A program made the translations under genes and the position numbers. Below, piece after piece: positions 1-28,670 of a DNA stretch of 64,000 bases. Numbering within the stretch: position 1 is the stretch's first letter; every line of letters begins with the position of its first letter. The DNA is taken from contig OZ287756.1 of NCBI GenBank assembly GCA_965649765.1, positions 10,912,001 to 10,976,000 of the forward strand, in the 5' to 3' direction. This stretch comes from Bispira polyomma. Lineage: Eukaryota. Below the pieces are notes generated by a model. That model was not told the DNA's origin and did not search any database. It saw nothing but the letters and a program-made list of their open reading frames with translations.

Positions 1-116
1 CATATAAGCATTTTTAAAAGCACACAGAAATGCTTGGGGTAATTTAACAAGCATACATGATTGACTCCATGAGAACAGACTGTTGCCAGAAAAACACAAA
101 TTTAGGCGGCACTTTA

Positions 117-175
117 GCAACAGCAACACGTTGCCAAAGTTTGGCCCAAACTTTTGGCAACGTGTTGCTGTTGCC
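117..175. repeat. Near-perfect ~29 bp inverted repeat (hairpin)
   Basis: GCAACAGCAACACGTTGCCAAAGTTTGG / CCAAACTTTTGGCAACGTGTTGCTGTTGC. Confidence 0.8.
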
Positions 176-836
176 AAAGTGCCACTATTACTACTGCTGT
201 CCTTGATTCTCCAATAAAGTACAAGCCCGTGTACTTTATTTCTATTATAAGACGGACAATAATGTATTTTGAAGCAAATAATAAGATATTTCCCAACTTA
301 CTGTGAACTGTTTTTGTAGCTACTGACGTAACTATTTTTCCGTGATCTATTCTCCCAGATAAAGTACGGCTACCAATTGGGCAGTGACGGCTTTTGTGTT
401 CTATGCGCATTTCCGGTCTTTATAATGATCAATTAATCTCTGATTTATAAGATAAAATCAAGTTTTTCAAACACAACCATGGTATTATGAAGATTGCACT
501 TAGAGGTAAGCTAACAACATCAAACAAATAATCTGTGGCTCCAGTGGTGTAATTGGATAGAGACAACTTAATTGTGTAGTATTATTGTCATCATTATAAT
601 ATAAATTAATGTTTACGTACTTAAACTGTGATTTTAAAGAGTTAGGCAATTTTGGGGCGATTTTTAGACGATTTTCCGTATCACCCTCACGGAAATCCGA
701 GGTTTAGAAACAACCCTTGATTAACGCTCTCAAATAGTTTGAGAATAATTTTCGAGGTTTAGTAGCAACCCTCAAATAGGTTCTGATAATATCGCTCAAC
801 TATAGAGAGTAAAGCCAATCTCAGTAAAGCCATACA

Positions 837-3800
837 ATGGCAGACATAGTTCAGCGCAAAATTGCTGCAGTCATTGGTGCGGCTTGTGCCGACGCAGCAG
901 GTATGATCTATGAGTTTTTGAACGCTGATATATTTGTATGTTTATATAATTTATCATGTACACGGGTGGTAAGAATTCTGGCTGGTACGAATTCTGGACA
1001 ATAAATACAATTATATGGAAATACCAGGAAATACACAGAAACTACCATGTCAAACTAACATTATTTTGTAATTTATTTTACACTACTAAATGTCTTCTTA
1101 CTAAAAAAGTGACAGAATATATAATACATCAAAATTTAAATGTACAGATAGAGATACAAGTTGGTCCTATATATTGCATATGCATATAGGTCTTTTAAGT
1201 ACATCTGTTTATATCTTGTGGTGGCAAAGGAGTGACCTGATAAAATATTGTTTATATCAGATTTAATAATAAAGTTATGAAAAAAAAATAATAATAATAG
1301 GAAATAAGATGAAGAAGCATACAGAAATACTACTTTTGCGCAATTGAATCCCTATGCGGCACTCAGCCTTGCACCTCCTCCTAGCCACCAAACTGTCTAG
1401 AATTCATACCACTTGACTTAACATATAAACAAATTTAAAACCTTATTTTAAAGAATCTGTTAAAAGATGTTTCACTGGTATTGATGTATGACAGGTGTTT
1501 CATGTATACCTATTTCAGTACATTTGACTTTTTATTATATCTTCTGCGACATACTTAAATTTGAGTAAAAACATCAAATTCTGTCCAGAATTCGTACCAC
1601 CCGTGTATTATTATCTCAAATTATTAAATTTATTTACATCAAGTTGCTTTCAAATATTAAATAGCTGTAATAATGTAGAAATAACGCACTCCAATGGCAG
1701 TGTTGTGTTGCATTTAACAACAAGTAGCGATATTCGGAGCACAAAGGCTAAGCCTGAGTGCTTCTAATGTGCTATGAGGGTGTTACAGACTAATGACATG
1801 CCATTTTATTAAATAAATCTTAAACATTTGTTCTTTGGGTGCCAAGTAAACAGTGGATTTGGCTGTCGAAATATTTAAATTTAATATTTTTTAAGTTCTT
1901 TATTAATTCTCCTTTGGATTCCGTACATTATCATGCAACTGTAATGTTTGAGAGACGTAATTTGCCTACCTTTTTATGCAGATGTAACACATGCCAGGGA
2001 ACCAATCAGAATTGCAAACACTGCAGTGTCATGTTAGAATTACTATTTGGGGGGAATTCGGTAGAGTTCCTTTAATTGCTTCCTTCATTTTAATATAAAG
2101 GTAATAAAATGGATCATATGTTTTAATATTTGCAGGGAGTTCTGTTTATTGCTCCCTTCATTTACAAGTACAATAATAAAAGACAAAATGTTTTGGGGAG
2201 TTCCGTTAATTTGTTCTACCCAGGTAAAATGTGTAGATATGGTGTCTGGACGTTTCACTGTATTCCTGATTCACTTTATAGTTATTTCGCTTTTAAAGTT
2301 AGGGGTTTCGCTGTATATAATTTTAATTATAAGTATCAAGTTATTTATTTATTAATGTTTCCTCAAAAATTTAATTTGATTAAATGGCTGTATCTATATG
2401 AATACTTGACCTTAAATTCTTGTTTTGGTATCATTAGAAAGCTTTCTTATTTCCTTTATAATAGGTGTCTCCAAGTTTATTTCATGTAAATGATAAATAA
2501 GGCATTGATAGTTAAATTTTGACTGTATATTTAAATTTGTTAAAAATACAAGTTTTTATAGTAAATGTCATTGATTAAATGCTTACATCTCAGTAAATAT
2601 AGGTGATACTGATTTTGAGATAATTTATTCATAGAGCCGGATAAATATGCTTTCTGGAATTTTTGACGAAATGAAAATATATTATATAATAGCTGATAAA
2701 GTTAAAGTTGAAGGGGTAAAATAATTTTACCGTATACCAACCGAAAATAGCAACGAAATCATCATACAGCGAAACCTCCGGTAATTGTAGATATAGGGTA
2801 ATATATGGTGGCAGCTCTTGCCGAGTCAAAGGTCAGAGACAGGAAAATATCCTTTTATGGAAGTTGGTACTTTTAAGTGCTATCTACTATGGCAGTTTAC
2901 CTAATTCATAAAATTCTTCTATTATGGCTAATAAACATGTGGCTTGTTATTTCCTTTGTCGATGTGTTTACAAACATATAAAAGATAAAAGGATCAACAA
3001 ATATTTTAGAAAGCGGTATTTCTGTATAAAACAATTTAGGTAAATATAAATTTGTATAACTGGAATTGTGTTCATAAAATCAAATATTCGGATAATTGAC
3101 ATTTGGAAAATAAAGCTTCTACTGTACTTACTTGTTATCACATTAAGCTTCTCCAATAAACAACTCCCACAGAAACTCCATAAATAACGATACATATTGA
3201 TATACCAAGTGGGAGCTACAACTTGGGAACTGCATTCCTCAGTTTGTGTGTTACCCACAAGGTCAAAGCGATTCGGTGGCATTTGTGGAACCCGAAATTA
3301 TCTCTGTTGAAGCTAATTTGACTGTAAGTTAAAATTAAAAGACAGAATTTAGAACTTTTTTTATATTTAATATTTATAGCCCAGCCCTTGCACTGGGTGT
3401 ATGATCGTAAAAAGATGGATACGTTGTTTGATGAAAAAGAAGAGGTCGAGTTCTCCCCAGTTTCCCACAATCCATTCTACAGGATAGAAACAGGAAAGAA
3501 CAGTTGCTATGGGGACCAAGCCTTTGTGGTATTAGAGTCACTTGTTGAATGCAAAGGTATGTACAAAAAAATTGAATAAATAAGGCCCCGTTCACGCTAA
3601 TCCGGATTGACCAGATTGGAGATTAAACCGGATAGGGCTGAATCCGGGTTTAGTGTCCAAACTAGAAAACTAATTCTTGGGTAAATAAACTTGCTGTTTT
3701 TATAGGGCAGGCATTAAGTATCGAATACAGAAAAATCGTGTAAATTAGAGTGGGGTTATATATCTGTTAGTTTTTCTATTTAAAATAAAAAATAAACAGT

Positions 3801-6800
3801 TATGGGGGAAAATCAATTTTCTTAGTGTTTTTGATAAGCAATGTTTTACACAAAACTTTAAAAAGGATATTATAATTTGATTTTTTCTAATACATCAGAA
3901 GAACATGTTAAGTAATCAGTGTCAATGCCTTAAAACTTTAACCATGGGCTATAAGCTAATTCCAATCAAACCAAAGTAGTTTCTAATTCTATTTGGGTAA
4001 TTAAGCTACATCAAAGAAGTATAACTTGAAAAAAGACTACTCCCCCAACAATAATTGAATAAGGGCCAAGTCAAAATGTCATTTAACACAGTTTATTTGA
4101 TTATTACTAAAATGTCAATATTTCCATCAAAAAAGGTAAGCTTTTAAGAATAATAATCCGCCACTAAATTCACTAATTGAATATGGCCCATTTTAGCAAC
4201 CCCTCCTAAGTTAACATATTGATGAATTGCAATCTATACCCCACACAGCTTTAATCTCAAGATTTTACAGTACCTCCCACTGTGACCCCATTCAACTTGG
4301 CCTGCGAGTGTTTACACTGGGTAGACGGTTGGCTCAATCCCGGACAATCTGCTTCAAACTACCTCTGAACGAGGGTTGAAATTTATCCGAATTGATTGGA
4401 ATAGCGAGTGTTTAGACTTACTCTGTATCTGCTTCAATCCGGGTCAATCTGGATAAATTTACAAGTGTAAATGCAGGGTAAGTCTGTCTTTGGAGGCCTC
4501 ACAAAGGTTCCTAAAGATATTAAGTCTTCCTATATTTTCCTATTTTGTTTTCGCTTTTTTGTTAAAACCTTCTCTGTCCTATATTTTTCTGAAAATATGT
4601 ACCTTCTCTGTCCTATATTTTTCTGAAAATATGTACTTATTTCACAAAAGTGACATTAGTTTTAAGAAGTAATTGGCCGATATCAAAAATATAAAATATG
4701 TTGTAAATCTGGGCATACAATTTCAAACTAGTAACTGTATATATTTGCAACAGTCTAGACATTTTTTAGCTACTTCTGTAATTCATGCTCATAGTTTGGG
4801 TTTCTGAGCAGGTAAATGTATGCTTAGATTTAATGTATGAAGACTTTATATTGGTACTCAACACCTTGGTTTTTGGCTATGTATTCATTGAGATGTACTA
4901 TATTTCCCTATTTTTTGTGATATTTCTAAAAAATATTTGCGAGTTTTGCTGTCGCAGTTTAAAACAGTTATGATTTCTCACCCTTCATGAAAAACTGGAT
5001 TTTACATAACAACATTTTATTAGAAGGATATAAATTGTCTAATGGCATTTTCATGTATGAAACATTTAAACATCATTAAGGTGACAGTGAAACATGTTTA
5101 GACCAGAAATTGGAGTAGACCAGATTTTGGAGCGTTGACTATAATACATAGCTGAATTAAAATAAGTGAGAGACAAACAATGTAAAATGTATTGTACAAG
5201 TTGAAGCTTGTCCAAAATCTCTACTGGTACTTGATATGTATTCATATATATATATCCTAAATGTACTTCACTTTGATGTTTTCAAAACAGGTGTTGATAT
5301 CAAGGATCAAATTGAGAGAAATTACAAGTGTTTTGGCAAGGGATCTGATTATGATCAGACAAATTCCTATGAATACGATACTTCATGGAGAGAGACTTGT
5401 AAGTGGTGCTCATTTTACATGGCCATTTTGGGGAGAGCAATATTTTTCCGGATAATAGAATGTTTAGAAAATCTAGGATGCATTTTAGTATAAAATAATA
5501 GCAAAATGTAGATTTGGGAGAGTCAATGTATACTCATAAAATTGAATATTCGGATAATAGAAGTTCAGATAATAGAAGTTCTACTGTATTTAGAATATGA
5601 GAACTCATTTCGATACAAAACAATAGAAAAACCTCAATTTGGGATATAATGGAAAATAATTTAGTGATGTCATCCCCAATCAAACGTTCTATCATAATTT
5701 CACCAGATTTTCTTGATGATATCACGATTATATCATAGTTAAAAATCTTTTTGTAAAATCATCTTCTAAAAATTCTCTTGGCTTAATTTCTTTGTATTTT
5801 CATCTTGTTCGTCAACTCTTTTGTTGTATAAAATATGGATTGCTGACATTTTTTTACACTACTTGCACATGTTCCCCCCTTAATTCAGGTGTACAGTGCC
5901 TTTAAATTAGTGAACTTAATCAGTAAGTGTGCGTTTCCATGCAGGCAACTTTCTGAGGCGACCAGGCGACGGCGATTCTATCAGTTTCATTGATTTATAA
6001 CCCAAGTGTTTCCATGTGAACAACGCCGATAGGCGACAGGCAATGCTAGGCGATTTTTTCGGTACTAGGAGCGAAAAAAATCGCCTGGCATTGCCCGTCG
6101 CCTTGTAAACATTATAAGAGTTTATTTGAACCTGGTAAACATTGCCGTTTTTTTAAATAACTTGAAAAATACTGATGGTCTAAATTTAATGAAATTATGG
6201 TGAGAAAGCTTATTTTATTGGGTATATTGTGCTTTTTGTTGCATCAAAATCGGTTGAGAAATGGCTAAGATATTGAGGTTTAAATACAGATATCGATTTT
6301 TCTCAAATATTGTACAGAAACATAAAAATTGAAAATTGCCTGTTATACGTCGGCTGGTCGCCTCAGAAAGTTGCCTGCATGGAAACGTTCACTAACTGAA
6401 ATTATTTTTAATGCCACTACCTATGATATCACAATTTTAGAACTTTAACCACGATACCTAAACTATCGCCTTGCCTCAATGATATAACGATATTGGGATG
6501 TCATCCTCAGTGAAAATTGAGTTCATAACGTTGAATTTTTTTGATAATAGATTTTTTTTTCGGGTTATGGATGTTCTACTGTATTTATGTTATTATTAAG
6601 CACTGGCAATGTTTGAGTTGCTGTATGTTTTTAGTTAACCTGAAAGTCAGTTGTTGTTCTTTATATTGAACAGCCCATCAACAAAAAAAACTGCCACTTG
6701 ATGGTCCCTGGCGGCACACAGGAGTCAAGGTCTTCCTGAGCAATGTGGAACATGGGAAATCAGAAACAGGTAACCGCGGCAGCCTTACGTCTATAACTAA

Positions 6801-9800
6801 GCATCTCGTAAAAGGGACACTTATTTCTCTTTCTTCTCTGGCTCTATTTCTAGTGAACTTTATAAAAAAGTCAAAATTTATGAATTTGATGACCGTCTTA
6901 AATTTTATTAGATTTTAGGCATATTTTAGCTAATAAAAGTAAAGAGCTCAATGTTTTCAAGTAGAAGTCAAAAATTAAAAGCTTGGCAGTCGTTTTGGTC
7001 CTTCATAACCATCTTAATCTGACTAAGTTTATATCCATCTTTTTTACAGGAGGTGTGTTGGCCTACTGGCATGTCACTAATATGGGTTCGGAGTTTGTCA
7101 GGTAGTTGCTGTAGGTCGATGATTTTCTTTCCCCTTCAATCTGGCCTTCGTGATCTGATCTAAGCGACATAAAACCCAACACAATTCAAATTCTGAAAAG
7201 AAAATGTGCAGAAGCCCAACTTCTGTCCCTAAGTACATGTCTATATGCATCTTGTATCAAGGTTCAGACAAAGATGAACAAATGGATGGAGTCACCAAGG
7301 TGGCTCCACTGATCGCTCTGTACGCTGGAAGACCTGAACTCTTACACAGAGTGGAGGAGGTGATCCGTGTCATCCAGAATAATGACTTGGCAGTGGCTTG
7401 CACTCTAGCAGCAGCCAGGTAAAAGATTATTATAGAGGAAGGAATAGCACCAATTCGCCACTATATCTGAAATGTTCTGGTAGTTAGGGTGTTGGTCTGA
7501 TGATCAGAAGGTCCCCGGTTCTATTCCCGGTACCGACCACTAGTTTTCATTTGGTGGAATAACATCCTTGGGCAAGATGTGAACACAAATTTGCCTAGTG
7601 GTTTGGATGACAACTGTTAAAATGGCTGTTATCCTCTGTTGCTAAGTTCTATCTCCAGTGGCTGATTAAAGATCCTAATGCACGTTGATAAATGGTCATC
7701 CTCAAGCAAGCCTCGGCACTCATAGTGGCAGCCCATAATGAAACGCATGTAAAAGGACACTGTGTTCTGTAAAGTGACTTATAACAAATGTCTTATTTCT
7801 TTTCATTTCAAATTCACCACCTAGAAAACGTGTTTTTGGTAGACTTGTGGGTAATATGTTCTGAAAAATGTAGATTTTTGTGACAATTTGACCTGACTTG
7901 CCTAAGTTCCAGTTGTTTTTTTTTGCCGAGTTTTTATGGTTACCTTAAATTTTAGGGGTGACAAACTTCAGACACATTGGCAAATTTTAGATTCCTGACT
8001 CTAGTAGTGTTGTGACGATTCAACAAACCTCTAAGCAGTCGTCGGTGTAAAACCCATAAAGGTCTATTTCTTATAAAATTTAGGGAATCGAATGTGTAAC
8101 TAAAACTAATAAAATTACATAAAACCGACCTGGCAAAGAAACATTTTATAATCCTATTCACCAAATACTTTTATATCGGATGGAATTTTATGGAAATTGT
8201 TCCAACTTGCATTGTTTCCAATTTATCGCTATATTTGGTGAATACTAACAACCACACGGAGGAAATTTACTAAATTGCATTGTTGTGTATAATAAAAAAG
8301 TCTTTTAAGGTGATGATTGGGTGAAAATCTTTGTGATTAATCAACCTGGTAAAAATTGGCCAGGTAAAGTAAATTTGCCTTACCAACACTTTCAAAATGT
8401 TTGTGTTACATCTCAGGTAAACATGTTGGATTGACAATGAATTCGGTGTTTTAATTGTTCTAATTTGCCTCACTTCTTTTCCTTGATTTAAATGCTTCTC
8501 AAACTTTAATCAAATACAATTTTCATATTCTGAATAGTTTTAAATGATTTTCAACTTAGATATTCTTAGTAGGGGCATGACAGGGTGGCCAGGCCCTAAA
8601 AAACAGTCCACGTTTCTAAAGAAACCAAAATAAAGCTAGTTAGGGAAACAAAGTTATTGGTTGCATGCCCTATTACAGCCCAGATAAAGGAACAAATTGA
8701 ATCCTGGGGCCATATTTACAAACATTCTTAGAGTTTTATTAAAAAAAGCCTATGAATTTAGTGGATTGAAGAAGTACAAGTTAGTATTTAAGTCAAGAGT
8801 GTTATTGAATCAGTGTTGTTTCAGGTCATTTTAAAGGGGCCACGGTGGCCTAGTGGTTAGAAGCGCCTACTTTACAATCACTGGCCTCTCACCAATGTGG
8901 GTTCGAATCCAGTTCATTCCTTCACGTGGAAAAGTTTGTCAGGTGCTTGACCTAGGCTGGTGGTTTACTGTGATTCAGCACTAGTTTCTTATAATAATAT
9001 TATAATTCAAGCATTTATAGATTGGGAAGTTCTTAAGAACATCCTCCAAGGTGCTAATATCATTTTAACCGTCCATCATTAAACCTGCTGGCTGTCGTGA
9101 TATGACCTAAGCTGTTGAAAGCGTTGTAAACCCAACTAAATTCCAATTCAGGTCATTTGAACTTAGAAGAATGATTTGTTCTTGAAACAGGATTCTCCAC
9201 TGCCGATAAAGATTTTTTGCCAAAACCTTTTATTCTGATGATCTATTTTTTATGTGAATAAAATTTTAGGATATTAGAACATTACGTGTTAAATGGTCCA
9301 GATCCAGAGATGTTAGACAAGATCCTGAAGCAGCTTGAAGACCCCCAGAGGAATAATCCCCAGGTATTTGTGTTGGGATGTTACAACAAGTTGTAATGTT
9401 ATGAACAGTGTAGATGTTTGTGTGATACCCCAGCAATAAGTGAGACAAACTTTAATTTCAATGTACTATAAATGAGTTATATCACCTTCAAAAACCTCAG
9501 AAATCATGCAGAATTTGGTAGTTTTTTTTCTCCAAATATGATGTACTACAATATTTTTTTTAGTTGGGTGTGTGTGTATACCCTGTTAACAAAAATACTT
9601 AACCTTGATTTGCGGTGTCTGATGTATTATCTGGGGATACTCGTGTGTCAAATTGACACATGATGTTTCTGTATATGAAACGGTGAAGTTTTATTACCTT
9701 TATGCATGCTTTAATGTTTGTGTACACCGTGAAGTATATTTTTGGTTTTCTACACCAAAAGTCATTTTCCTCAGACTGAGGACTAAAAAGCTCACATATT

Positions 9801-12800
9801 GGTTACAAGTGTTCTCATTAACGCTTTATTGTTTTATGTATTGCCAGACATGTACGCTAGGAACCAAACAAAGCTAAATTTTACTCTCCGATAGTGTTGT
9901 TCACGGAATACCGGTAAAGCAGTTTTGTTTCACTATACCCAAAACAAACAACGTACATTCACATCTAGTGATATTTGTTTTTGTAAGAAACTCACATTTC
10001 TGCAGTAAAATATCCAATTTTACCATTTTAATTACTTTCCTTTAGTATTTCTTATGTTCGTGTAGTGCATGTTAACTTTCTAGTTGAGTTTTGACAGGAA
10101 ACAGGAAGTACAGGCGAATGGCATTATTTACGGTAGGAAAGTATTTATAATAAAAGTAAAAACGTAATTTACCGGTGTTCTGTCGATAACTTGTGAACAA
10201 AACCGGTTTCCTAAAATGTAACCTATAGCAGCACTACTCTCCGAACTAAGTTTTAAATATAAAATTTAATCGCAACACTACTCTGCTGTAGAGCTGCCCC
10301 AAACCAGTTGCAATGGAACAGAAACCAGTAGTGATGACCTATTTATTTTTTTGGCTGATTTTGAAGATTAATAAATGGTTGGTTTCTGAATAAAGCAGCT
10401 ATGATATTTTACATCGATATCGAAATATTTATCAAAACTAGTCCGTAGTGTCGATAATAAAATTGTTTGATCATATATCAATATCAAAATACATGAACTT
10501 TACGTAAATGAACAAACAAATATAAATGACATTCAGCATCAAATAAATTTACCTACGCAATATTGTTCACATATCCATTAATATAATATGGTAACACTTG
10601 CACATTTTAGTATTCGTTACAAAGTATCAACCATACCGGGATGTGAAGGTCACCTGTAATTTACCATAAACATCAAGTTATCACTCTTTTTTAAGGCAGT
10701 TGATCCATCCAAATGCTGAAAATATATTGCAATATCTATACAAAAGCACCATTTGATACCATAGCTAGGTGGTATGGAGAGTAATGGGCAGCGAATAATC
10801 TAGTTCACTTTAAGGTTGTATTCACTGTAATAATACTATATACTCTGCTGTACTTACAGGAACTTGATACTTTCATAGCAGGATCCCTCAGAAGTGTAGC
10901 TGCTGTTGTGGATAAACCTCACAAGTATGTGGTGAGGGAGGTGTTCGCTAATAACTGAGGTATTGGTCACTTTAGCTACTAATATACCCTTGTGTTGAAT
11001 CTGTCCTATCACTACTCCAAACTAAAGCTTAACCCTGACAAAACAGAATTCATCCTCATAGGAAACAAGAAAAACAGTGAACTCCTAAAATCTTTGTTTC
11101 CCATCTCCCTGCTGGGAAAAGACATACTACCTTCCGAAAATGCTAAAAACCTGGGTGTCACTTTTGATTCAGCTTTTTCGTTCGATACTCATGTTGCCAA
11201 CATCTGTCGCTCCTGCTATTACCACATACGCGACATCAAAAGAATCAGAAACCACTTGTCCATGGACACAGCGATAACTGTGGCTAATGCCTTTGTGAGT
11301 AGCCGCCTCGACTACTGCAATTCTCTCTTGTACGAAGCAAACAAGTCAAACATTAAAAAGCTCCAGTCCATCCAAAACTACCTATGTAGGGTCATTTTTC
11401 GCCTGGGTTGTCGCACAGACGTCACTCCTTACCTCAAAAAATTACACTGGTTGCCCATTAAATCTCGAATTTTGTTTAAGATTCACGTTACCACTTTTAA
11501 GGCTGTAGTCACTCAACAGCCACCCTACCTTGCCTCCCTTCTTTCCTTCAGTAACCGCAAGAGAGGCAACAGACTCTCTGTCACTTTGGCTAGACCAATC
11601 AGAAAGGTGGGTTTAAGAGCGTTCTCCACTGCAGCTCCACAGTTATGGAACAGTCTCCCAGTTGACCTCAGATCAGTTGATACACTTATCGGTTTTAGGA
11701 AAAAGCTTAAAACCTATCTTTTTAATCTTGCCTACCCACCTTAGCTTTCCTCGTGCACGCTCCCACTTCCTTCCTTACGACTTTGCAATTTCCATGGACT
11801 TAATGATTGGACTAATGATTCTGCTGTTGCGCTTTAGAAGATGCCTAGCATCAATAAAGCGCGTTAAAAATCTATAATAATAATAATTAACAATAGTATA
11901 CCTTAAAAAAAGAATCCATAAAATATGATATATAATAAGTAGGCAAATTTATTGTTTGGGAAGCAAAAATCTGATTTGAATTTGGTTCTAACATCACATT
12001 GTATAGGTCATATCACGACAGACAGTTTCAGTGTAGGAGGAAACCAGTGTATACTAGTTGGTTTAAGATTCTACCCTGTAAACTAGTGACCATTGGCAAG
12101 TAACTGGCAAATTTCCCACTTAAAACCCCAGCCATGCTAAGTGAGCACCTATATAGCATATAATATTCGTGACATTATATCGAGAAAATTGAATATTGAA
12201 CCTATCTTGCCTTTGATATCAATCTCATGACACACAAACGATTTACCCACTAATATTGACCTTGGTGAAGTCAATGATTATCTTTACTTCTATATAACCA
12301 CAGTGTTACCCAAGGCCTTCCAGTCTGCCTTACATGGTGTTTTGACACCATATACGTGAAAATCTATATAACCACAGTGTTACCCAAGGCCTTCCAGTTT
12401 GCCTTACATGGTGTTTTGACACCATATACGTGTATATCTATAACCACAGTGTTACCCAAGGCCTTTCAGTTTGCCTTACATGGTGTTTTGACACTGTATA
12501 TATATCTATATAACCACAGTGTTACCCAAAGCCTTCCAGTTTGCCTTACATGGTATGTTGACACTGTATATATATCTATATAACCACAGTGTTACCCAAG
12601 ACCTTCCAGTTTGCCTTACATGGTGTTTTGACACCATATACGTGTATATCTATATAACCACAGTGTTACCCAAGGCCTTCCAGTCTGCCTTACATGGTAT
12701 TTTGACACTATATATATCTATATAACCACAGTGTTACCCAAGGCCTTCCAGTCTGCCTTACATGGTGTTTTGACCCACTCTGTCTATGTTGATGCTGTGA

Positions 12801-14201
12801 GGTCCACCATGAGCGCTGGAGGCTGCGACTGCTCCCGGGGATCTTTTATTGGGATGTGTCTGGCTGCTCAGGTAAGATGTAACTCTATATTAGAAATTTT
12901 AGCTGGAAGAAAAGTTACAATTTTGAAGAAATACAAATGGAAATAATTCCTACTATTGTCCAATTTTTAAACGGACTAGCGAAAATAGTAAATGTAAAAT
13001 GTAAATCTTATACTGCTATAGCACCACAATCTATGACCAGGCATCCTCTGTGGCACACATCCTAATCAGTATAAGGAATAGTCCGAAGGAGAAAGGGTTC
13101 GCAGTTAGAGTTAAGCTGTGACCAACAGACAAAGTTGAAGCAGAAAAGCGAGTTGGTACATTTAATAGTAATTTAAATTGCTGAAATTGGTGGTGAAAGA
13201 GTTATTTTAAATTTTGGAAACTAGTGTACCATGAGGAATGGAGTATGGCTTTACTATTACATCAGTTTTCTATTTGTGACAAGTGGCATTGATTGGGTAT
13301 GGATCTTTTCGAGTCAGGATAAGCCAAATTGAGCTGTTTATTGAAATTACTTGATTAAGTAAAACCTCTAAACATGTTGACAAAGCAAGATATTTTTGGG
13401 ATAATCAAATGTTCTTAATTATATTGGTACAAAACGCTGGCATAACATAGTATTGAGGAGAATGACAATAAAGGCTTAAGATGATGGAATCTGTAGATTT
13501 CTCTCTATGTGTGTTTCAATATGGTGCCGCATACTGGTTGTTGAATTGGGTAAGTAAATTTCAAACTGGTGGCTAGTGTGGTTAGAATAGTTAGCTTCAC
13601 AATCACTGGCCTAATGTGTGTTCAAATTCTGTCTGCTTCCTTCACGTAGGAAAGTTTGTCAGGTACTTGCTGTAGGCCAGTGGTTTACAGTGCTTCAGCA
13701 CTGGTTTCCTCGACCGTTAAAAACCAATTTCAACCAAATAAAATGCTGATACATACCTAAACTCAACTTCTTTTTTCCACAGTATAATTTCAAATTTAAG
13801 TCTAAGATAAAAAATAAAGTTACAATTTAAGCTGTCTAATTATTTATTTTAATTGGCGACAATGTGCTTTGGGGCACATAGTAAACTTCAGCAAAGAAGG
13901 AGTCTAAAATATACATCTGTAAGGCGGATGAGTCGTAAAGCCCGGACTCAATGCATCGCTATATATATATTTATCACAGTCCACTGATGCATCGATCTCT
14001 CAACTAAACGTCGCAGCTTCAGTGCAGGCACATTGTAAATTTTTCTGTGTGTGTTTTAGTATGGTGCCACATTATTACATTTCTGTGTGTGTTTTTTAGT
14101 ATGGCCCAGATTGCATTCCAAGCAGTTGGAAGGAGAAAACCTTTAGATATCCTTTGGTAAAAGAATTGGCTGAGAAATTGGTTCAGATTGTACCAAAGTA
14201 A
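837..14201 (+). CDS. SELENOJ: Selenoprotein J / J1-crystallin homologue (ADP-ribosylglycohydrolase family), 9 coding exons, 345 aa, Sec at codon 265
   Basis: Exons 837-900, 3380-3556, 5291-5398, 6674-6769, 7262-7418, 9270-9363, 10860-10959, 12732-12871, 14100-14201. All introns are GT-AG with compatible phases (1038 nt total). Translation MADIVQRKIAAVIGAACADAAAQPLHWVYD...GKNSCYGDQ...PLDGPWRH...DEQMDGVTKVAPLIALYAG...VFANN-U-VLPKAFQSALHGVL...AGGCDCSRGSFIGMCLAAQYGPDCIPSSWKEKT matches motifs I recall for the SelJ/J1-crystallin family. Confidence 0.93.
961..1605. mobile_element. Non-autonomous DNA transposon with TA TSD (Tc1/mariner-like) in SelJ intron 1
   Basis: TA|CACGGGTGGTAAGAATTCTGG ... CCAGAATTCGTACCACCCGTG|TA. 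Confidence 0.75.
3584..4478. mobile_element. Degenerate non-autonomous PIF/Harbinger-like element
   Basis: TAA flanks on both sides. Imperfect inverted ends (GGCCCCGTTCAC...ATCCGGATTGACC / GGTCAATCTGGAT...GTGTAAATGCAGGG). Confidence 0.45.
5927..6392. mobile_element. PIF/Harbinger-like MITE
   Basis: ~45 bp TIRs GTGTGCGTTTCCATGCAGGCAACTTTCTGAGGCGACCAG / CTGGTCGCCTCAGAAAGTTGCCTGCATGGAAACGTTCAC, with TAA TSD. Confidence 0.8.
8836..9150 (+). mobile_element. tRNA-derived SINE
   Basis: A box TGGCCTAGTGG and B box GGTTCGAATCC. Related copies near 13567-13740 (+) and 17400-17580 (-). Other tRNA-SINE-like heads near 7480, 30970, 44220 and 46430. Confidence 0.7.
9892..10236. mobile_element. hAT-type MITE
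   Basis: Termini TAGTGTTG...CAGCACTA with a perfect 8-bp TSD CTCTCCGA (9884-9891 and 10237-10244). Subterminal inverted ACCGGTAAA/TTTACCGGT. Confidence 0.8.
10956..10958 (+). other. In-frame TGA (selenocysteine codon), 1 nt before the exon 7 donor
   Basis: GTG TTC GCT AAT AAC TGA G|gtattg. Family-like coding sequence continues in exons 8-9, and a SECIS lies downstream. Confidence 0.88.
11011..11887 (+). mobile_element. 5'-truncated L2-clade LINE (3' part of ORF2 plus 3' UTR, (ATA)n tail) in SelJ intron 7
   Basis: LKLNPDKTEFILIG...SRLDYCNSLL...LHWLPI..RI.FKI motifs. Nearly identical to the copy at 44771-45618. Confidence 0.9.
12289..12774 (+). repeat. 7-copy 68-74 bp tandem repeat of the SelJ exon 8 splice acceptor plus exon start
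   Basis: Unit TCTATATAACCACAG|TGTTACCCAAGGCCTTCCAGTYTGCCTTACATGGTGTTTTGAC. The G of each AG is at 12303, 12377, 12449, 12519, 12589, 12663 and 12731. Confidence 0.97.
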
Positions 14202-15625
14202 AGAAATCTGCTGTAAAACTAAACTGAGGGAAATTGTGTGTGGCACACAACCCTAGTTATAAACTTGCACATATATAAGGGTTATCCATCACTCGATAAA
14301 TAAGGGTTATCCATCACTCGAGTTAAGTTAAATTAAAAGATGTAGAAGTAGTATAGTACAAACAGTATGTTGCATAAAAAATAGAATTTAACATTTAGAA
14401 ATTACAAAAGAGGCAATAAACCATATATAGGAATTAAAATTGTAAATGGAAAAGTTGTATTGCCATTTTTTGGTTGGTTTATGGATTAAATCATATTGTA
14501 AAATGACCGGCCGCAACAAGTGACCATGTATGACTGAATCTTGAAGATTGTCATCTTATATGATGGTGGTACCACTTTCCAGTCTATTAAAAAGGTTGTG
14601 TATCATCTTTTATGTCATAGCAGTTGAAAATATGCGAAAGCACTTACCAGTCACCGTCAACATTAATTGTGTATTTATATTAACTATTATTTCTATTTCA
14701 AAATGTTAAAAGCTTGTAGTGGCATTTGAAATTGTAGTCATCTTAATTGTGATATTAGAGAAATTCAGACCAGATTTTGGTATTGTAATATCCATGAATA
14801 TCCGAGCATTAAACACTTGGGCTACTAGGGTTTTCCCTTTACCTCAACTGTTAGCGTACTGCATAATTTGTCTCAAGATCCAGGACAACCCAAGATTAAA
14901 TCCCTGCAGTAGCAAGCCTAATTATAAGTTTGCAGCAGAGCTATTTCTGTTGTTTACAGTACAAAGACAATACAATTTTTCACCATGTGTAACATCTTAT
15001 TAGTTACGCATTATGTAAATTGTAGTAAAACTATTTTTTACAAAGAAGAAATACGAGTGATCACAGTATGACTGTATCTGAAGTGTATTATAGCAATCAA
15101 CTTATTGTGCATTATGTTTTCATATGTACAAGAGTTACTGTGATTAAAAAGCAGATGTGTTACTAGATTGTAGGCAGACCGTAGTTTATTTTTGTTGTGT
15201 AAGTTTATTATAATTCAAGCAGTTGTCACAAATGTCAGTTTATATTCAAAAAGCATGTAGAGTTGGTATTCTCCTTACAAATAAAGAAGGAGTTTTGTAA
15301 ATATACAGTCATTCCCCTAAAATGAAATCACCCGGAAATAAGAATATGACCTCTCCCCCTAGAAAAAAGGTTTTCTATGCTTTCATCAAAAAAAAGATTG
15401 TGAGCAAAATTGTTCCTTTAATTGACATCAGAGGGTTCTACATAAGGGGGTTTTACTTTGTGTGTAAAAAAAACTTGCATCTACTTCATCAAGGTAGTTC
15501 AATGCAACTTGTTAACCTGTGTAATTGTTAAGGTGTAAAACTGTTCTTACCAAGCAATGGCTTGGTACAATTTTGTTCATTATTGAATTTAGTTTATATA
15601 TAATAATTGTTTAAATATAAAAATA

Positions 15626-16143
15626 CAGTAGAATCTGTTATATTCCAATGATCTTTTCTGGACGTTTCTGCATAATTGCCAATATTCTGTGACATATTTA
15701 TCTTGTTTCTTTGATATCATTATTTGTCTACAATTAATTTGAATTTGACAATAACTTTGACATTATTCGGGCACAGGCACATGGCAGACCCATTGAATTG
15801 TGGATTAAACAGATTTCTCTACAGTTCTGTACCTCTTTTATCCGAACTTCTATTATTAAAATATTCAATTTTACAAATGCATCCATCCTTACGACCTGGC
15901 TATGTTTTTTCATTTTTCTATTGGCTGATTGATTTTGATGTTGCGCCTTGGAAGATGCCTACCATCAATAAGGCGGGTTAAAAATGTATAATACAAGACA
16001 AAAACATATTTTCACTCTTGCTAAAATTTATCTTTCCTATTGTTATATCCTAAAAATGGCTTTTCTAATTTATCAACCCCTTCTATTATCCAAACAAACT
16101 GCTCTCTCACTCCTAAGAGGTTTAGATAATAGAGGTTCTACTG
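15626..16143. mobile_element. Composite of CAGTAGAA..TTCTACTG MITE-like ends with an L2 3'-tail fragment (~15880-15995) in the presumed SelJ 3' UTR
   Basis: TA|CAGTAGAATCTGTTAT ... ATAATAGAGGTTCTACTG|TA. The internal segment matches the 3' UTR of the L2 copies. Confidence 0.45.
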
Positions 16144-16210
16144 TATATATTTAGATAGTAGTTGCCCGTGTTTACTCTTTACATATTACCCACAAATCAG
16201 TACAACCTCG

Positions 16211-16293
16211 AGAGGGAGTTTTGTAGCCAATGATGGTGGTTATCTAAACTACTACCGAGTAAGGATAACTCGCCTGATGATCACAAGATCTCT
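16211..16293 (+). promoter_or_regulatory. Eukaryotic SECIS element, type II
   Basis: Helix I GAGTTTTGT/ACAAGATCTC. Core ATGAT (16230-16234) opposite TGAT (16275-16278). Helix II GGTGGTTATCT/GGATAACTCGCC (11 bp, 1 bulge). Unpaired AAA at 16246-16248. Apical minihelix TACT-accg-AGTA. Confidence 0.88.
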
Positions 16294-18989
16294 ACAATGA
16301 GGGCTCTTAAGGTTTACTGATTTAGTTAATATGTAGGAAGGAAACTAATGCAGGGAGTTTGTATTCATGAGGGATAAAACATATACACACATTACATATA
16401 CATTTAGTGTAACAAAGTTTGTATTTTTATAATATATAGACCACTTGTTTTGTGATAAAAAAAAGTCTATTTTATTTTTGTTGCAAGTAGATTTTCTTTT
16501 TACAAATTTTTGTTTTGTCTTGCGTAAATATTTTGTAATATATGCTATTTAAATGAGTAAAGATTCTGCAATCTTAGTACAATTTTTATTTTTACAATTT
16601 TATGTTATCTGAATATTTCATTTTTTTTACACAGTTTGACTCTCTTAAAATAAATTTTTCTGTCATTTTACCCTAAAATGTATTTCTTTTATATTAACCT
16701 GTTGTTGTCCAAACGAAATGTTTATCTCCAACCATTTCGGATAAAAGTGGTTACCTAATTAAAAGGCAGTCGTTGAAATAAATTTTTGCATATAGACTTT
16801 TCATGAGTATTATTCCATGTCAATATATTATAAAATTTAAATATGTTTGCTAACATATAGTCGCCGGTTACTTCTATAATTTAGAAATATACTTAATTGC
16901 AAACACAAAGTATTGGTTTCAATTCAACTCATGTTATTCATTACGGACTTTTCTGAATAAAAATCTTTTAACATATATGCAACTTGGTTTTTTTTTTTAC
17001 TAAGATATAATCAGGGTTCTTCTGTGTTCTGAGACCAGGTCTCAGAAACTGATTGTCAAAGGAAGTTTATATTTTGAAACAAATATTTTCTCAGGGCATG
17101 TAGATAATCGACAACATGGTCTAACCTTGTGTTTGACTTTTGAGAAATCACTTTTTCCTAAAAATGTTGTCCGAACTAGATCTCAGGAATGACGCATCAC
17201 CGAAAGTTGATATTTGGTATAAACATTCAGTTGGGAGTATTGATGTGCAACATTCTTGTCTCGCCTCTCTTTGACCTTGGTGTTACCACCCCATTCTCTA
17301 TCAAGACTCAGACTAGATTTCGGAATCTACTGCTCGTAAGAAGTTCATATTTAGGAAAAATGCTGTAACCTTGACTTTTGTTCGGTTTTTATAGCGCTTT
17401 CAGTAGCTTAGATCACAACAGTCAGATTTAATGGAAGAAACCAGTGCTTGAAGCCGTGTAAACCACTGACAGTACCTGACAAACCTTCCCAAATGAAGGA
17501 ACAAACCTGAATTCAAACCCACATTTGCACGAAACAATGAGATTATTAGCAAGTGCTTCACCACTAGGCCACCGCTGCCCCACTTTCACCTTGGAGTAAT
17601 GACCTAGAGTTCAAAAACCTTTCCAGTTTTGATGTCCTTAGCTACTCACTAAAACTTTATATTTGGTACAGAAAGAACGAAGCATATTAATATTTTCCCT
17701 TGATTATTGATTTTGCATCTATTTCATTCAATAAGAGTTGGGTTCCACAATCTCTGGTGTCATTCCATCTTTACTGAAACATTTTGTTAGGACATAGAAC
17801 ATTATGCTTTATCTATCCAGGAGTTTTAAGCTTGTAAGATTGTATACAAATAGTCGCCCCTGTTCGGAATTTGTGATGCAGCCAGTTGACTTATTTTACA
17901 TTGAAAAAATTCACCAAAACATTCAAAACAACCCTAAGAGAAAAGTATTGTGGGGAAGTGAAGAGAATTTTTTGGATAACCGGTTACAGATAACTGGAGT
18001 CCCTAAGATAAACACCAGACTACTTCCGGTATCAAGAACCGCCTCCTGTATAATCTTTTAAACATGGAAGTCTGCTGTACTAACAATTTACTATTGTGAG
18101 GAACTAAAGTAAAATACAATAATATTTTTACGATGTTGACTGCTTGTCAATAAACATAGGTTCTGGAAATAACAAATGCGGTTGACTATTAGCCGACAAC
18201 ATAGAGTTCGAAAGGGTTGACCATTTTCCCTTTTTGGATATCAGCATCTTAGAGGATGGTGCTTTATAAATGTTTCAATTATTATTGGGCCATAGAAAAC
18301 ACAAAAACAAAACAACTATTTGCATTATTTAATGATACATTAAACAATAAACATACAAAAGTAACAATGGTAAGATTTTAAAAAAACTGAATATCTTAGA
18401 ACCTCCAATATCTGAAAACTTGAGAAAGATTTTTTTTTTCTAAGAGAAGATTCAGAAAAAATAAAGAGTTTATATAATATAAAACAAAAAGGAAATGTAC
18501 ACTTGACAAAAGTGGAAAAGTTCACAAAAAGTTCACATGATAGAGGTTCTAGTGCATATATCACGGTTCTGTTGATAACACAAAATGCGGACATTAAATG
18601 CATTAGTGGATTAACACTGTGCCGTTATAGGTCAAATATTTAAAAAAATTATCAAAGCGTGACCATCAAATTAAATAACCCCTTAAGTAGATCTCTATTA
18701 AGTCTACCTTTTTAACTGAAGGAAATCCACAGTGCCACTGAGGCTTTCTATATAATCTACTCTCTTAAGTATGGCTCAAATCAAATAGCAACTTTCCTAA
18801 TCCAAATTGTTGAAATGACTTTAAACAAATATTCTATTGACCATAACTGTTTACCACAAGTCTATATACAACTGTAGTTTACTTTTAGTATCAGGTGTGA
18901 CATTTATATTCAGTCCCTAAAAATGATACATCTCTTGAAATAAGATGACATTTTTTATACCCTAACTAACTCACTAATACCTGTTTATG

Positions 18990-20690
18990 TTATGAAGGCA
19001 TGACTTCTCTGCCATCCAATGGACAGCTTACCGAACTGTTTTTCAACCACATGTCAATACACTGGGCATGGAAGACATGGTCACAAGGTAGGAATTTCCT
19101 CAGTTCACCCACAATATAAGGGTCTAAGCAGACCATACAGATATCACCTGCAGTATCCTCAGTAGCTGTATCAGTTTTTAACCTGTCCAATACGCTGTTG
19201 TCTACGGTCTTTGTTTTAACTCTGTCATCCAGTCGTAGAAGCAGTTCGTAATCCTCGGGGGTTAGATCACGATACTGTGCAGTCTGTAAGACATTTACAA
19301 GGTCTGCTGAGAAGTCACCATCAAAATTATAGGCATCCAGTGTATGGCCAACTACTTTGTGATGATTTTTGTTGGATACTTTGTTCACTGCAGCAGGTGT
19401 TGACGGTGACCATGCTGCTGCTTTGGAATTTCTATTTTCTTTGATTGTCCCCATAGCATATCCCTTTTCTTTGTCAATTCTCTTCATGCTTAGAGCCCTG
19501 GTCCTTCTAAACAAATATCCAAGACCAAGCTTCATAGCCGCAACCACGATATGCTTTAGGTAGAGTTTTTTACCGTGCCCACCATTTTGAACAGTTGCAC
19601 AATACTTGGATTTGATCTGTTTATGTGCTTTCTGTACTTTCCATTTCCTCTTGTTTCTGAGATGGCTGATTCTCTTATCCTCCTGAACTGTAACTAATGC
19701 TTCCAGTTCATGTGCGTTGACCTTACTTTCGTAAAACCACACCCAGTCGAAATATTTACTTTCGAACAAGACCTCTTCATGACTACTATATATATCTCTG
19801 CACTTCTTTGAACTTGCCAATGTTGTCTTTGCAGTAACAGCTACTGCTGCAACCACTTTAGTATCAACATTGGCATTGTCATGACAACACACTAGCACTT
19901 CACCTCCAACTCTATCCGTTACATTCTCACTTTCATCGCTTTTCTCTTTGTTGTCACCTGCTGGTGTAGCACGGCAGGAGGAACTTTGGTCAATTGACTC
20001 TATCACATTACCTTCTTCAGAATGAGTACAGTCTTTCTCAAAGGTTTCTAGTTCTTTCTCCACGTCATCCAAATGGTCACAGTCGGTAACGGGCACCCTT
20101 CTGGGCAGAAGAGAAAACTCAAACCCCAGACTGAGCTCAAACACCTTCCACTTCTTTTTAGCACCCTGTACTCTTGATTTCCTTCTTTTGTAGTTTTTCG
20201 ACACACCTTCACTTATAAACTCATCATCAGAGTTCGCGTTTCCTATGCTACGATCTTCGAATCGATTATGAAGACCCATTGCCAAGTTATGGTGGTCACT
20301 GCATGGCATTTTGATCACTTCGATTATCTCACCTTCTGGTTTGGATGATGTTGCACTATATCTACTGCTGCTATCCTCATATACATTGTAACCTTCTTTG
20401 GAGTTATAATCCACTGAAGAAATCACATCCCTTAATTGTAGATCAGTATTCTTGGCAAGGGTATTATCACTATCATTTCCACTGTGATCAGCAGTGGCTT
20501 CTTTAGATGAGACACACCCACCTTTTTCACTGTGAAAATCCTTCATGATCAACTCAAAGAATTCTCCCAAATTAACTGCTGGTGTGTAAGGCGAATCTGG
20601 TGCCACATTACAACACTGATTTTTGTGTGTTGTTTGGTCGTGTTTTGACACATGAAGATTAGGCAGAGAACTCTGCCTATTGAGTAACAT
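18990..20690 (-). CDS. Single-exon RING-H2 finger protein (putative E3 ubiquitin ligase), 566 aa
   Basis: C-terminal C-x2-C...C-x-H-x2-H-x2-C...CPLD (CMVC..LPCDHVFHAQCIDMWL..CPLDG; last ligand Asp), preceded by YRDLTPEDYELLLRLDD. Uninterrupted 1.7 kb ORF. Confidence 0.85.
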   Translation of the reverse strand: MLLNRQSSLPNLHVSKHDQTTHKNQCCNVAPDSPYTPAVNLGEFFELIMKDFHSEKGGCVSSKEATADHSGNDSDNTLAKNTDLQLRDVISSVDYNSKEGYNVYEDSSSRYSATSSKPEGEIIEVIKMPCSDHHNLAMGLHNRFEDRSIGNANSDDEFISEGVSKNYKRRKSRVQGAKKKWKVFELSLGFEFSLLPRRVPVTDCDHLDDVEKELETFEKDCTHSEEGNVIESIDQSSSCRATPAGDNKEKSDESENVTDRVGGEVLVCCHDNANVDTKVVAAVAVTAKTTLASSKKCRDIYSSHEEVLFESKYFDWVWFYESKVNAHELEALVTVQEDKRISHLRNKRKWKVQKAHKQIKSKYCATVQNGGHGKKLYLKHIVVAAMKLGLGYLFRRTRALSMKRIDKEKGYAMGTIKENRNSKAAAWSPSTPAAVNKVSNKNHHKVVGHTLDAYNFDGDFSADLVNVLQTAQYRDLTPEDYELLLRLDDRVKTKTVDNSVLDRLKTDTATEDTAGDICMVCLDPYIVGELRKFLPCDHVFHAQCIDMWLKNSSVSCPLDGREVMPS

Positions 20691-21329
20691 GGTTCACAAA
20701 AACAGATGTATGGATTTATCAATAGCTAACTAGCTCTATATGTATTGTATAGACACAATACAGAAATAAACTTGATTAATTAAAAATGTGTATATACAGC
20801 ACATCCTTTGCCATTAAAGGCCAGAATGAGGTTTACCCCAGAATGAACATATATGACTGGCGTGAAAATGAATGTATATATTGGGCCTCTACTGTCGATT
20901 ACACAAGTATTTCGCTTGTGTGTGCAATATTTTTATACCGATCTTTATAAATTAGCCATAAACTGATGGTCTTACATTGCAGATGATGGTGAAATAGTGT
21001 ATGTCCTTATTTAGATCATTACGTAATTCACAAAACCTAGCAGACCACACCATACCGATGTTCTATTGGCCAGTGATCACATGGTTACATGACGTCATTA
21101 TTGGATTTCCCTCCTTCTGTTGGTTTGTTTACAGGCTTTGCGAGACCTCGTATAATCAGTATGGCAAGTGTCGTGATAATTAGTGTCTGGATCAGTGCAA
21201 ATCGGCGAAAACATGCCTCTGGTAAAGCAGAATCAATTAATACTTGCTATTCAAGAGGTACTATTAAAGTAAATAATAGGCAAACAAACATGTTTCTTCG
21301 ATTTCTTCTTCAATCCCTTGCCAAACCGG

Positions 21330-26630: not shown

Positions 26631-26637
26631 CCTGAAA

Positions 26638-26936
26638 TTAAATTAAAGTGTCCATTAGGAACATGTCTAGTGGTATATTGTGCATTTCAAAATTTTCTTT
26701 AATCAAGTCTTTCATTTTTTGTCCATAATGTCCTAATTCATGCCAACGAAATAAACAGTCTGCAATAACGTTGTCTTTACCTGGTATGTGTTCTATTAAG
26801 AGGTCTATATTGTATTTTGCACCAAGTAGCCAAATGTTTCTCAAACATAAGCTTAAATATTTATCTTTAGTTTTCAACGACCGCACTACAGAAACCACTG
26901 CCATGTTATCCGATTTGATTTTTAATACGTTTAATA
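26638..26936 (-). pseudogene. C-terminal RNase H fragment of a DIRS/Ngaro pol
   Basis: IKSDNMAVV...IEHIPGKDNVIAD..R motif, fused directly to repeat A1. Confidence 0.8.
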
Positions 26937-28190: not shown

Positions 28191-28670
28191 CCCCCAATAT
28201 TCTTATATCCCTTAAGTAGTCTACATAGTAGTACATTTTCATTGTACCTGTTAGCATCACCAAATTTTCTTCTTCTTTTTTTTGTGTGTGTATGTACATG
28301 TGTAAAAACAGTTTTATGTCATCCGTCAAATAATAATACTACCATAAAACTTACTATTTATCCTCCCTATTTGTGTTTAACTTGTATAATTTTATAACCA
28401 TCTACAGGGAATTGCGTTTTGTTAAAAATTGGAAAGCACCTACCGTTCACTAAAATGTGCATTTATATAAAGTAAGATTTATATTTAAAAGATCCAAAGT
28501 TTGTTTTTATTCTTATCTAATATACCTTAACTGTGATGTTTAAAAACGTTCAGACCAGAATTTGGAATAGACCAGATTTTGGAACATTGACTACACATAT
28601 AATAATTAGAAATTTTGGTTAGTTGTGGTGGTGTTTGAAGGTACATTGTATGAACTTTATTATGTCCAGT

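What the first reader, a model, noticed from the sequence alone, without database searches (positions are those of the whole stretch)
837..16293. Complete invertebrate selenoprotein J gene that the ORF track misses (in-frame UGA plus SECIS)
Seen: a 9-exon model of 345 codons with TGA at codon 265 and a canonical type II SECIS. Established: SelJ is a patchily distributed selenoprotein, first described in fish and sea urchin, absent from mammals and homologous to jellyfish J1 lens crystallins. Standard annotation would truncate it at the TGA or skip the codon. The UGA lies 141 nt upstream of the final exon junction, so inefficient Sec decoding should expose the mRNA to NMD (inference).
Basis: partly seen in the sequence, partly recalled or inferred. 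Interest (0 to 1): 0.7.

Follow-up and report, generated by a model that had tools for sequence, protein, structure and literature searches.

The report
Invertebrate selenoprotein J gene
This is an intact nine-exon invertebrate gene whose internal UGA "stop" most likely encodes selenocysteine, making it a correctly spotted new member of a known but functionally unexplained selenoprotein family that databases often cut short.

Summary
Observation confirmed. Nine exons with GT-AG introns give 345 codons with one in-frame TGA at codon 265, 141 nt before the last junction. Of 128 homologues, 41 end exactly one residue before that codon and 22 have Cys there. In the wider family 107 of 116 scored have Cys. 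Similarity continues past the TGA. A SECIS (core 16230-16279) is the only descriptor hit in the window; its Rfam score, 27.3 bits, is below the cut-off of 35. The genome has tRNA-Sec and SepSecS. No RNA evidence was available. The protein keeps the ADP-ribosylhydrolase fold but lacks most metal-binding acids, and Sec maps to the substrate cleft. That suggests a selenol-dependent enzyme rather than a structural crystallin (inference). 'Patchy' is overstated: truncated records imply the Sec form in 20 molluscs and an annelid. NMD exposure is plausible but untested. Verdict: real, new member of a known family.

The parts
837..900 (+). Exon 1 (coding part, ATG at 837)
   Evidence: in-frame stop 3 codons upstream of the ATG
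3380..3556 (+). Exon 2; holds His26-Trp27 and Cys64-Tyr65, at the places of ARH metal-binding acids
   Evidence: (PF03747 E 0.018)
5291..5398 (+). Exon 3
6674..6769 (+). Exon 4
7262..7418 (+). Exon 5
   Evidence: (PF03747 E 0.0065)
9270..9363 (+). Exon 6
10860..10959 (+). Exon 7, ending one base after the TGA
10956..10958 (+). In-frame TGA, codon 265, predicted selenocysteine; occupies positions -4 to -2 of the exon-7 donor
12289..12774 (+). 'Mirage' minisatellite: 6.8 copies of a 70-74 nt unit (15 nt of intron end plus about 45 nt of exon 8 plus an AT-rich spacer). Acceptors open at 12304, 12378, 12450, 12520, 12590, 12664 and 12732; only the last gives an open frame directly
12732..12871 (+). 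Exon 8; holds Gly-Gly-Cys297-Asp-Cys299-Ser-Arg at the place of the ARH D-x-D-T motif
   Evidence: (PF03747 E 2.7e-05)
14040..14099 (+). Single diverged duplicate of the exon-9 acceptor (would open at 14060, 40 nt upstream, out of frame)
14100..14201 (+). Exon 9 coding part, TAA at 14199-14201
14202..16210 (+). Presumed 3' UTR of about 2 kb, with AATAAA at 14415 and 15280 and repeat remnants at 15831-16000 and 16116-16149
   Evidence: not shown to be transcribed
16211..16293 (+). Type II SECIS element, core ATGA 16230 / AAA 16246 / GA 16278-16279
16649..16961 (+). Candidate poly(A) signals downstream of the SECIS (AATAAA at 16649, 16777, 16956)
   Evidence: use not tested

Best explanation
This is an intact nine-exon SelJ (SELENOJ) gene whose in-frame TGA at codon 265 is most likely read as selenocysteine with the help of the SECIS 2.0 kb past the stop codon, giving a predicted 345-residue protein that likely uses the selenocysteine as a reactive residue in an ADP-ribosylhydrolase-type cleft. 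Shown: exon structure, TGA position, SECIS-like hairpin, homology, conservation pattern, tRNA-Sec and SepSecS in the genome. Inferred: (a) splicing skips the six decoy acceptors and uses 12732, as in known mirages (about 0.8); (b) the mRNA reaches the SECIS and Sec is inserted (about 0.9); (c) the protein is not a Mg-dependent hydrolase but a selenol/thiol-dependent enzyme acting on an ADP-ribose- or NAD-like ligand, with His26, Asp19, Asp67, Asp157, Arg301 and Cys64/297/299 lining the old metal site (about 0.5); (d) failed Sec insertion exposes the mRNA to NMD (about 0.5). The confidence given is for a functional selenoprotein gene.
For: Open 345-codon model with 8 of 8 GT-AG introns. 51-54% identity to the top 20 fish SelJ/'crystallin J1' records. 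At column 265: 41 of 128 homologues end one residue earlier, 22 have Cys (14 of them salmonid-type, a reported Sec-to-Cys conversion, PMC13134290 passage), 41 have a gap and continue, 24 have other residues in models that differ around the column. Wider family: Cys in 107 of 116 scored, out of 147 representatives. Identity after the TGA is at least as high as before it in 13 of 14 homologues tested. SECIS: only descriptor hit in the window, 2 of 200 shuffles, Rfam SECIS_1 27.3 bits. tRNA-Sec: 6 matches over the cut-off, anticodon TCA in 3 of 3 checked; intact SepSecS. One SelJ locus found in the genome. Model of the salmon Cys orthologue: pLDDT 94, ARH fold Z 37.4 to 1t5j and 34.5 to human ARH3. 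Metal ligands replaced.
Against: No transcript or protein evidence. No database record bearing U was retrieved, so alignment to a known Sec is indirect. The SECIS scores below Rfam's cut-off and lies behind two AATAAA sites (14415, 15280) and repeat remnants. The productive exon-8 acceptor has a weaker pyrimidine stretch (0.57) than decoy copy 1 (0.71), which kept the original intron context and leads to a stop after 18 codons. The structure is of an orthologue, not of this protein, and gave no coordinates; the place of Sec in the cleft comes from low-confidence sequence alignment. Cys64, Cys297 and Cys299 are only about half conserved in the wider family (70 of 145, 52 of 104, 68 of 104).
Confidence: 0.88

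Rival explanations
1. The TGA is a true stop (or a nonsense mutation or assembly error): the gene makes a 264-residue protein or is a young pseudogene, and the hairpin is chance.
For: Rfam score below cut-off; no RNA evidence; the contig tables did not list a piece covering the TGA itself.
Against: 41 of 128 homologues across several phyla stop at the same codon and 22 have Cys there; exons 8-9 are open and as conserved as exons 1-7; the SECIS lies on the right strand behind this gene only; truncation would remove the helices 266-340 that align with the ARH core.
Confidence: 0.04
2. The gene is a selenoprotein gene by descent but is crippled or made variable by the acceptor array: most transcripts use decoy copy 1 and hit a premature stop, or include a 33-nt in-frame mini-exon (copy 4 or 6 has a GTAT donor) that duplicates 11 residues right after Sec.
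For: Copy 1 has the best pyrimidine tract; 6 of 7 direct routes end in early stops; 11 further routes of 63 enumerated are open, among them copy 4 to copy 7 with a 179-nt intron. The array is in short-read contigs of two samples of one study.
Against: [quoted passage not shown]
Confidence: 0.12
3. Function rival: the protein is a non-catalytic ARH-fold pseudoenzyme or structural protein (like Adprhl1/ARH2 or jellyfish J1 crystallins) that binds a partner or ADP-ribose, with Sec as a redox sensor or structural residue.
For: Loss of the binuclear metal ligands is what defines Adprhl1 as a pseudoenzyme (PMC7390403 passages); ARH folds also occur in mitoribosome-assembly and chloroplast motor complexes; a structural role is the textbook suggestion (PMC13134290 passage).
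Against: Cys/Sec is kept in 107 of 112 aligned residues across clusters under 50% identity, with His26 (135 of 143), Trp27 (142 of 143), Asp19 (135 of 136) and Arg301 (101 of 104), a pattern more typical of an active site; costly Sec insertion has been kept in many lineages.
Confidence: 0.35
4. Function rival: the protein is still a classical Mg/Mn-dependent ADP-ribosylhydrolase and Sec is incidental.
For: ARH fold with high Z; Asp19 and Asp67 are conserved and 48 of 104 distant members keep Asp at 297.
Against: The bridging Asp316 position is never acidic (0 of 104), the TDD motif reads S-C-Y and the Glu-flap residue is His; both metals are needed for catalysis (PMC7050489 section 22).
Confidence: 0.1

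Closest known systems
SELENOJ (SelJ) of ray-finned fishes, sea urchins, amphioxus and algae (Castellano 2005, not readable here; PMC13134290, PMC3473315, PMC7539508, PMC3316567 passages)
   Same: 51-54% identity over nearly the full length; Sec/Cys column; ARH/crystallin-J1 domain; SECIS; fish and mollusc gene models break at the same point as the exon 7/8 junction
   Different: Host is an invertebrate of unresolved phylum (long branch); mirage array at exon 8; UGA-to-SECIS distance about 2.3 kb (mammalian range 207-5207 nt, PMC3316567 section 14)
Cys homologues: salmonid SELENOJ, gastropod and hemichordate 'crystallin J1'-like proteins; jellyfish J1 crystallins (the latter not retrieved by name)
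   Same: Same fold and motif set; Cys at the Sec column
   Different: Cys codon instead of TGA, no need for a SECIS
ADP-ribosylhydrolases ARH1/ARH3, DraG, MJ1187 (PDB 1t5j, 2foz, 2woc)
   Same: Fold (Z 34-37, rmsd 2.2-2.6 A for 1t5j, 2foz and 2woc, on the salmon orthologue model); GG-x-x-x-S motif position
   Different: Glu41, Asp77, Asp78, Asp314 and Asp316 equivalents are His26, Cys64, Tyr65, Cys297 and Cys299; Sec sits near the ARH3 Ile271 position
Adprhl1/ARH2 pseudoenzyme (PMC7390403)
   Same: ARH fold with lost aspartates and a lineage-specific conserved residue in a cleft loop
   Different: Di-arginine there, Sec/Cys here; separate lineage
Amphioxus 'mirage' minisatellites, globin BflGb6 type (PMC3087553)
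   Same: Tandem copies of an intron end plus exon start, 6-7 units, cryptic AG in each
   Different: Here the array directly follows the Sec codon; splicing outcome not measured

Membership tests
SELENOJ selenoproteins | ADP-ribosylglycohydrolase/crystallin-J1 domain, closest to annotated SelJ | tested here: met
   PF03747 weakly on exons 2, 5, 8 (each below cut-off alone); 51-54% to fish SelJ, E about 1e-130
SELENOJ selenoproteins | In-frame TGA at the family's Sec/Cys column | tested here: met
   no U-bearing record retrieved, salmonid Cys used as the marker (PMC13134290)
SELENOJ selenoproteins | Coding conservation continues past the TGA | tested here: met
   41-59% after versus 39-54% before in 14 homologues
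SELENOJ selenoproteins | Eukaryotic SECIS downstream on the same strand | tested here: met
   below Rfam gathering score; SECISearch3 not available
SELENOJ selenoproteins | Sec machinery in the genome | tested here: met
   tRNA-Sec and SepSecS only; eEFSec, SBP2, SPS2 and PSTK were not searched
SELENOJ selenoproteins | mRNA with the modelled junctions that includes the SECIS | not testable with these tools
   no RNA run was offered for this stretch
SELENOJ selenoproteins | Selenium incorporated into the protein | not testable with these tools
   needs 75Se or MS
Active ARH-family hydrolases (ARH1, ARH3, DraG) | All-helical ARH fold | tested here: met
   on salmon orthologue P0027:
Active ARH-family hydrolases (ARH1, ARH3, DraG) | Acidic ligands of the binuclear metal centre (Glu flap, TDD, D-x-D-T with bridging Asp316) | tested here: not met
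   His26, S-C-Y 63-65, C-D-C-S 297-300 by sequence alignment to 1t5j and ARH3; position 299 acidic in 0 of 104
Mirage minisatellites | Tandem unit spans an intron-exon boundary and the real exon is the terminal unit | tested here: met
Mirage minisatellites | Copy-number instability between haplotypes | tested here: inconclusive
   no joints or differences listed in contigs of 3 runs, 2 samples, 1 study; contigs drop rare variants
Mirage minisatellites | Regular splicing is unaffected | not testable with these tools
   no RNA data

The most novel reading that the evidence does not exclude
SelJ is a widespread, hidden lophotrochozoan selenoenzyme, not a fish and sea-urchin oddity with a structural role: an ADP-ribosylhydrolase scaffold that traded its two-metal centre for a His/Cys-lined pocket and a near-invariant Sec/Cys nucleophile, acting on an ADP-ribose- or NAD-derived substrate. 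I found no statement of this reading in the SelJ passages I read, but the founding paper (PMC1283428) and PMC6885538 were not held, so it may be in print.
Probability: 0.35. Interest if true: 0.65.

Novelty: new member of a known kind. Interest (0 to 1): 0.3.

Why it matters
As a gene call it is a correct annotation rescue in a family that pipelines nearly always get wrong. Its wider value is for the family. The homologue records imply that Sec-SelJ is common in molluscs and present in annelids, beyond the range stated in a 2026 survey (PMC13134290). The conservation pattern gives a concrete test for a family still called functionally uncharacterised: mutate Sec/Cys265, His26 and Cys297/299 and assay against ADP-ribose-type ligands. 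The acceptor array next to the Sec codon is a natural test of how a long-range decoy array is skipped.

Tried and rejected
RNA evidence: no RNA holder listed; the three runs are contigs of unknown kind from one study and may include the assembly's own sample. Laying them on 500-17500 was swamped by repeats and showed no intron-like joint among the rows shown; this says nothing on expression. Rfam at gathering level: 0 hits. A first exon model was off by one base at four boundaries (corrected in 9). The 275-sequence MAFFT alignment misplaced the model around residue 265, so its rows 258-270 were dropped and redone with a seed profile; that seed holds Cys forms and may favour placing Cys in the column, and 31 of 147 representatives could not be scored there. 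Alignment A3 was picked partly by knowing the Cys, so its invariance is not counted as evidence. Exon 8 alone found no PDB sequence. Phylum: the SelJ tree leaves the gene in no supported clade; SepSecS is closest to two unnamed proteins (85-88%), then Lingula 69% and Aplysia 68%, barely above vertebrates at 64-68%, so lophotrochozoan is only a lean. In-frame skipping of the TGA by an earlier exon-7 donor: only 1 of 9 internal GTs has the right phase and it is a poor donor. A 3' UTR intron ending at 16200 was considered; no strong donor was found; unresolved. Assembly artefact for the array rejected: copy-specific contigs match exactly at flank depth. Earlier findings on SelJ or this place: none. 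Papers not held: PMC1283428, PMID 16260744, PMC6885538. No complex prediction was run, as no binding is claimed.
Full report
1. Observation. I rebuilt the gene from the sequence. Nine coding exons (837-900, 3380-3556, 5291-5398, 6674-6769, 7262-7418, 9270-9363, 10860-10959, 12732-12871, 14100-14201) give 1038 nt, 345 codons and a TAA, with 8 of 8 GT-AG introns and a single internal stop, TGA at codon 265 (10956-10958). A plain ORF list shows only fragments overlapping exons 3 and 8, which is due to the introns as much as to the TGA.

2. Identity. Exons 2, 5 and 8 each match PF03747 weakly. Exon 2 finds 12 proteins named crystallin J1A-like or unnamed; a second search lists 120 of 262 hits, many named selenoprotein J. 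The model is 51-54% identical to the top 20 fish records. In an alignment with all 128 proteins, 41 end exactly at residue 264, 22 have Cys at 265, 41 have a gap and continue, and 24 have another residue in models that differ around the column. Fourteen of the Cys rows are salmonid-type, and salmonid SELENOJ is reported as a Sec-to-Cys conversion (PMC13134290, passage read); one Cys row (Triplophysa) looks like a model artefact. No record with U was retrieved. A profile search of 1.84 billion representatives gave 3219 hits at E 0.001; of the 147 new ones listed, 116 could be scored at this column: 107 Cys, 4 ending there, 5 other. Identity after the TGA is 41-59% against 39-54% before it in 14 homologues. 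A genome search with the salmon protein found only this locus.

3. SECIS and machinery. The hairpin has ATGA at 16230, AAA at 16246, GA at 16278-16279, an 11-pair stem and a short apical stem. Rfam SECIS_1 scores it at 27.3 bits, under the cut-off of 35. My descriptor, written after seeing the element, finds only this site on both strands of the window and a site in 2 of 200 shuffles of the 3-kb region. The UGA-to-SECIS distance would be about 2270 nt, inside the mammalian range of 207-5207 nt (PMC3316567 section 14). Two AATAAA sites lie before the SECIS and three after it, so SECIS-less transcripts are possible. The genome holds 6 tRNA-Sec matches over the cut-off, TCA anticodon in 3 of 3 checked, and an intact SepSecS.

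4. The exon-8 acceptor is the last of seven tandem copies of a 70-74 nt unit made of 15 nt of intron end, about 45 nt of exon and an AT-rich spacer. Copy-specific short-read contigs match it exactly at flank depth, so it is not an assembly error, though those runs may share the assembly's source. Direct use of copies 1-6 ends in a stop after 18-68 codons; copy 1 keeps the original pyrimidine tract. Copies 4 and 6 have gained a GTAT donor 33 nt in, so an in-frame mini-exon is possible on paper. I therefore treat the array as a known, probably tolerated feature, and as the main untested risk. The exon-9 acceptor also has one diverged duplicate 40 nt upstream.

5. How the protein may work. The spliced product could not be folded, so I folded the natural salmon Cys orthologue (52% identical): pLDDT 94, pTM 0.94, ARH fold with Z 37.4 to MJ1187, 34.5 to human ARH3 and 34.0 to DraG, and the first unrelated row at 3.2. 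Characterised ARHs need two metals held by acids, including the Glu flap (Glu41) and the bridging Asp316 (PMC7050489 section 22). By sequence alignment to 1t5j and ARH3 the Glu-flap position is His26, the TDD motif reads Ser-Cys-Tyr (63-65) and D-x-D-T reads Cys-Asp-Cys-Ser (297-300). In the wider family position 299 is never acidic (0 of 104), while His26, Trp27, Tyr29, Tyr65, Asp19, Arg301 and the Sec/Cys are 94-99% conserved. The Cys of one family member aligns with ARH3 Ile271 and with about residue 211 of DraG (offsets inferred from tagged chains, alignment confidence low), next to the adenine-stacking Tyr212. The corresponding ARH1 loop, Ser262-Gly271, binds the adenosine (PMC6309922 passage); that it is the same loop is my inference. 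The reading I favour, at about even odds, is a re-purposed enzyme in which Sec is the reactive residue in the ADP-ribose cleft. The main rival is a pseudoenzyme or structural role as in Adprhl1 (PMC7390403 passages).

6. NMD. The 141-nt distance meets the 50-nt rule (PMC6173133 passage), and predicted-sensitive selenoprotein mRNAs mostly respond to low selenium, with GPx4 and SelN as exceptions (PMC4105750 passages). The EJC mode has not been characterised in many lineages, and this animal's phylum is unresolved. Plausible, untested.

7. Comparison and novelty. SelJ is known from fishes, sea urchins, amphioxus and algae (passages of PMC13134290, PMC3473315, PMC3316567, PMC7539508) and is nearly always misannotated (PMC12822975 passages). 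The 24 named records that stop at the Sec column (20 molluscs, Owenia, 2 amphioxus, Patiria) suggest a much wider invertebrate range; I did not see their DNA. I recall that mollusc selenoproteomes have been published, but the paper I tried (PMC6885538) and the founding SelJ paper (PMC1283428) were not held, and no supplements were read, so both the range and the active-site reading may already be in print. PMC9087173 and PMC11488344 (passages) only confirm the ARH link.

8. Verdict. A real and complete SelJ gene, very probably a selenoprotein (0.88), a new member of a known family. Interest 0.3; 0.65 if the catalytic reading is shown.

Noticed in passing
window 10956-10965: The TGA forms positions -4 to -2 of the exon-7 donor, so the A of the Sec codon is the consensus -2 base; a change to a Cys codon would weaken the donor. 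Fish and mollusc gene models break at the same point, which suggests an old intron position.
   Followed up: partly
window 12520-12552 and 12664-12696: Mirage copies 4 and 6 carry a GTAT donor 33 nt after the acceptor, like the gene's real donors; copy 4 could act as an in-frame 11-residue cassette exon.
   Followed up: partly
window 10983-11880: 5'-truncated LINE-type element in intron 7, starting about 25 nt after the Sec exon; near-identical to the RT-bearing copy at 44401-45504, with further remnants near 15877-16000, 34831-35180 and 54809-55516.
   Followed up: partly
window 18990-20693 (-): 567-codon stop-to-stop frame ending in a RING-H2 finger, convergent with SelJ.
   Followed up: partly
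window 48345-50663 (+): 772-codon frame with leucine-rich repeats and a TIR domain, a Toll-like receptor gene.
   Followed up: partly
window 21896-23467 (-), 25652-26964 (-), 37180-40485 (-): Retroelement remnants: an integrase/SH3 frame and frames that look by eye like DIRS-type tyrosine-recombinase elements (no Pfam hit for the two tested).
   Followed up: no
G000 C6 75.28-75.32 Mb, C2 21.76 Mb, C12 28.79 Mb: Six tRNA-Sec matches over the Rfam cut-off, four of them clustered on C6; more copies than the single gene usual in animals (recalled).
   Followed up: partly
L015 1456-2943 (-): SepSecS is encoded without introns in its coding region.
   Followed up: no
window 115-176, 6028-6108, 24690-24779: Long near-perfect inverted repeats that give sub-threshold miRNA-family matches, probably MITE-like repeats.
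   Followed up: no
window 28669-29556 and 55711-56366: A 443-nt tandem duplication at 99% identity and a 21-nt minisatellite of 31.5 copies.
   Followed up: no
P0002/P0095 (Aplysia), P0113/P0071 (Haliotis rubra): Some gastropods seem to hold both a truncated (Sec-type) and a Cys SelJ paralogue.
   Followed up: partly
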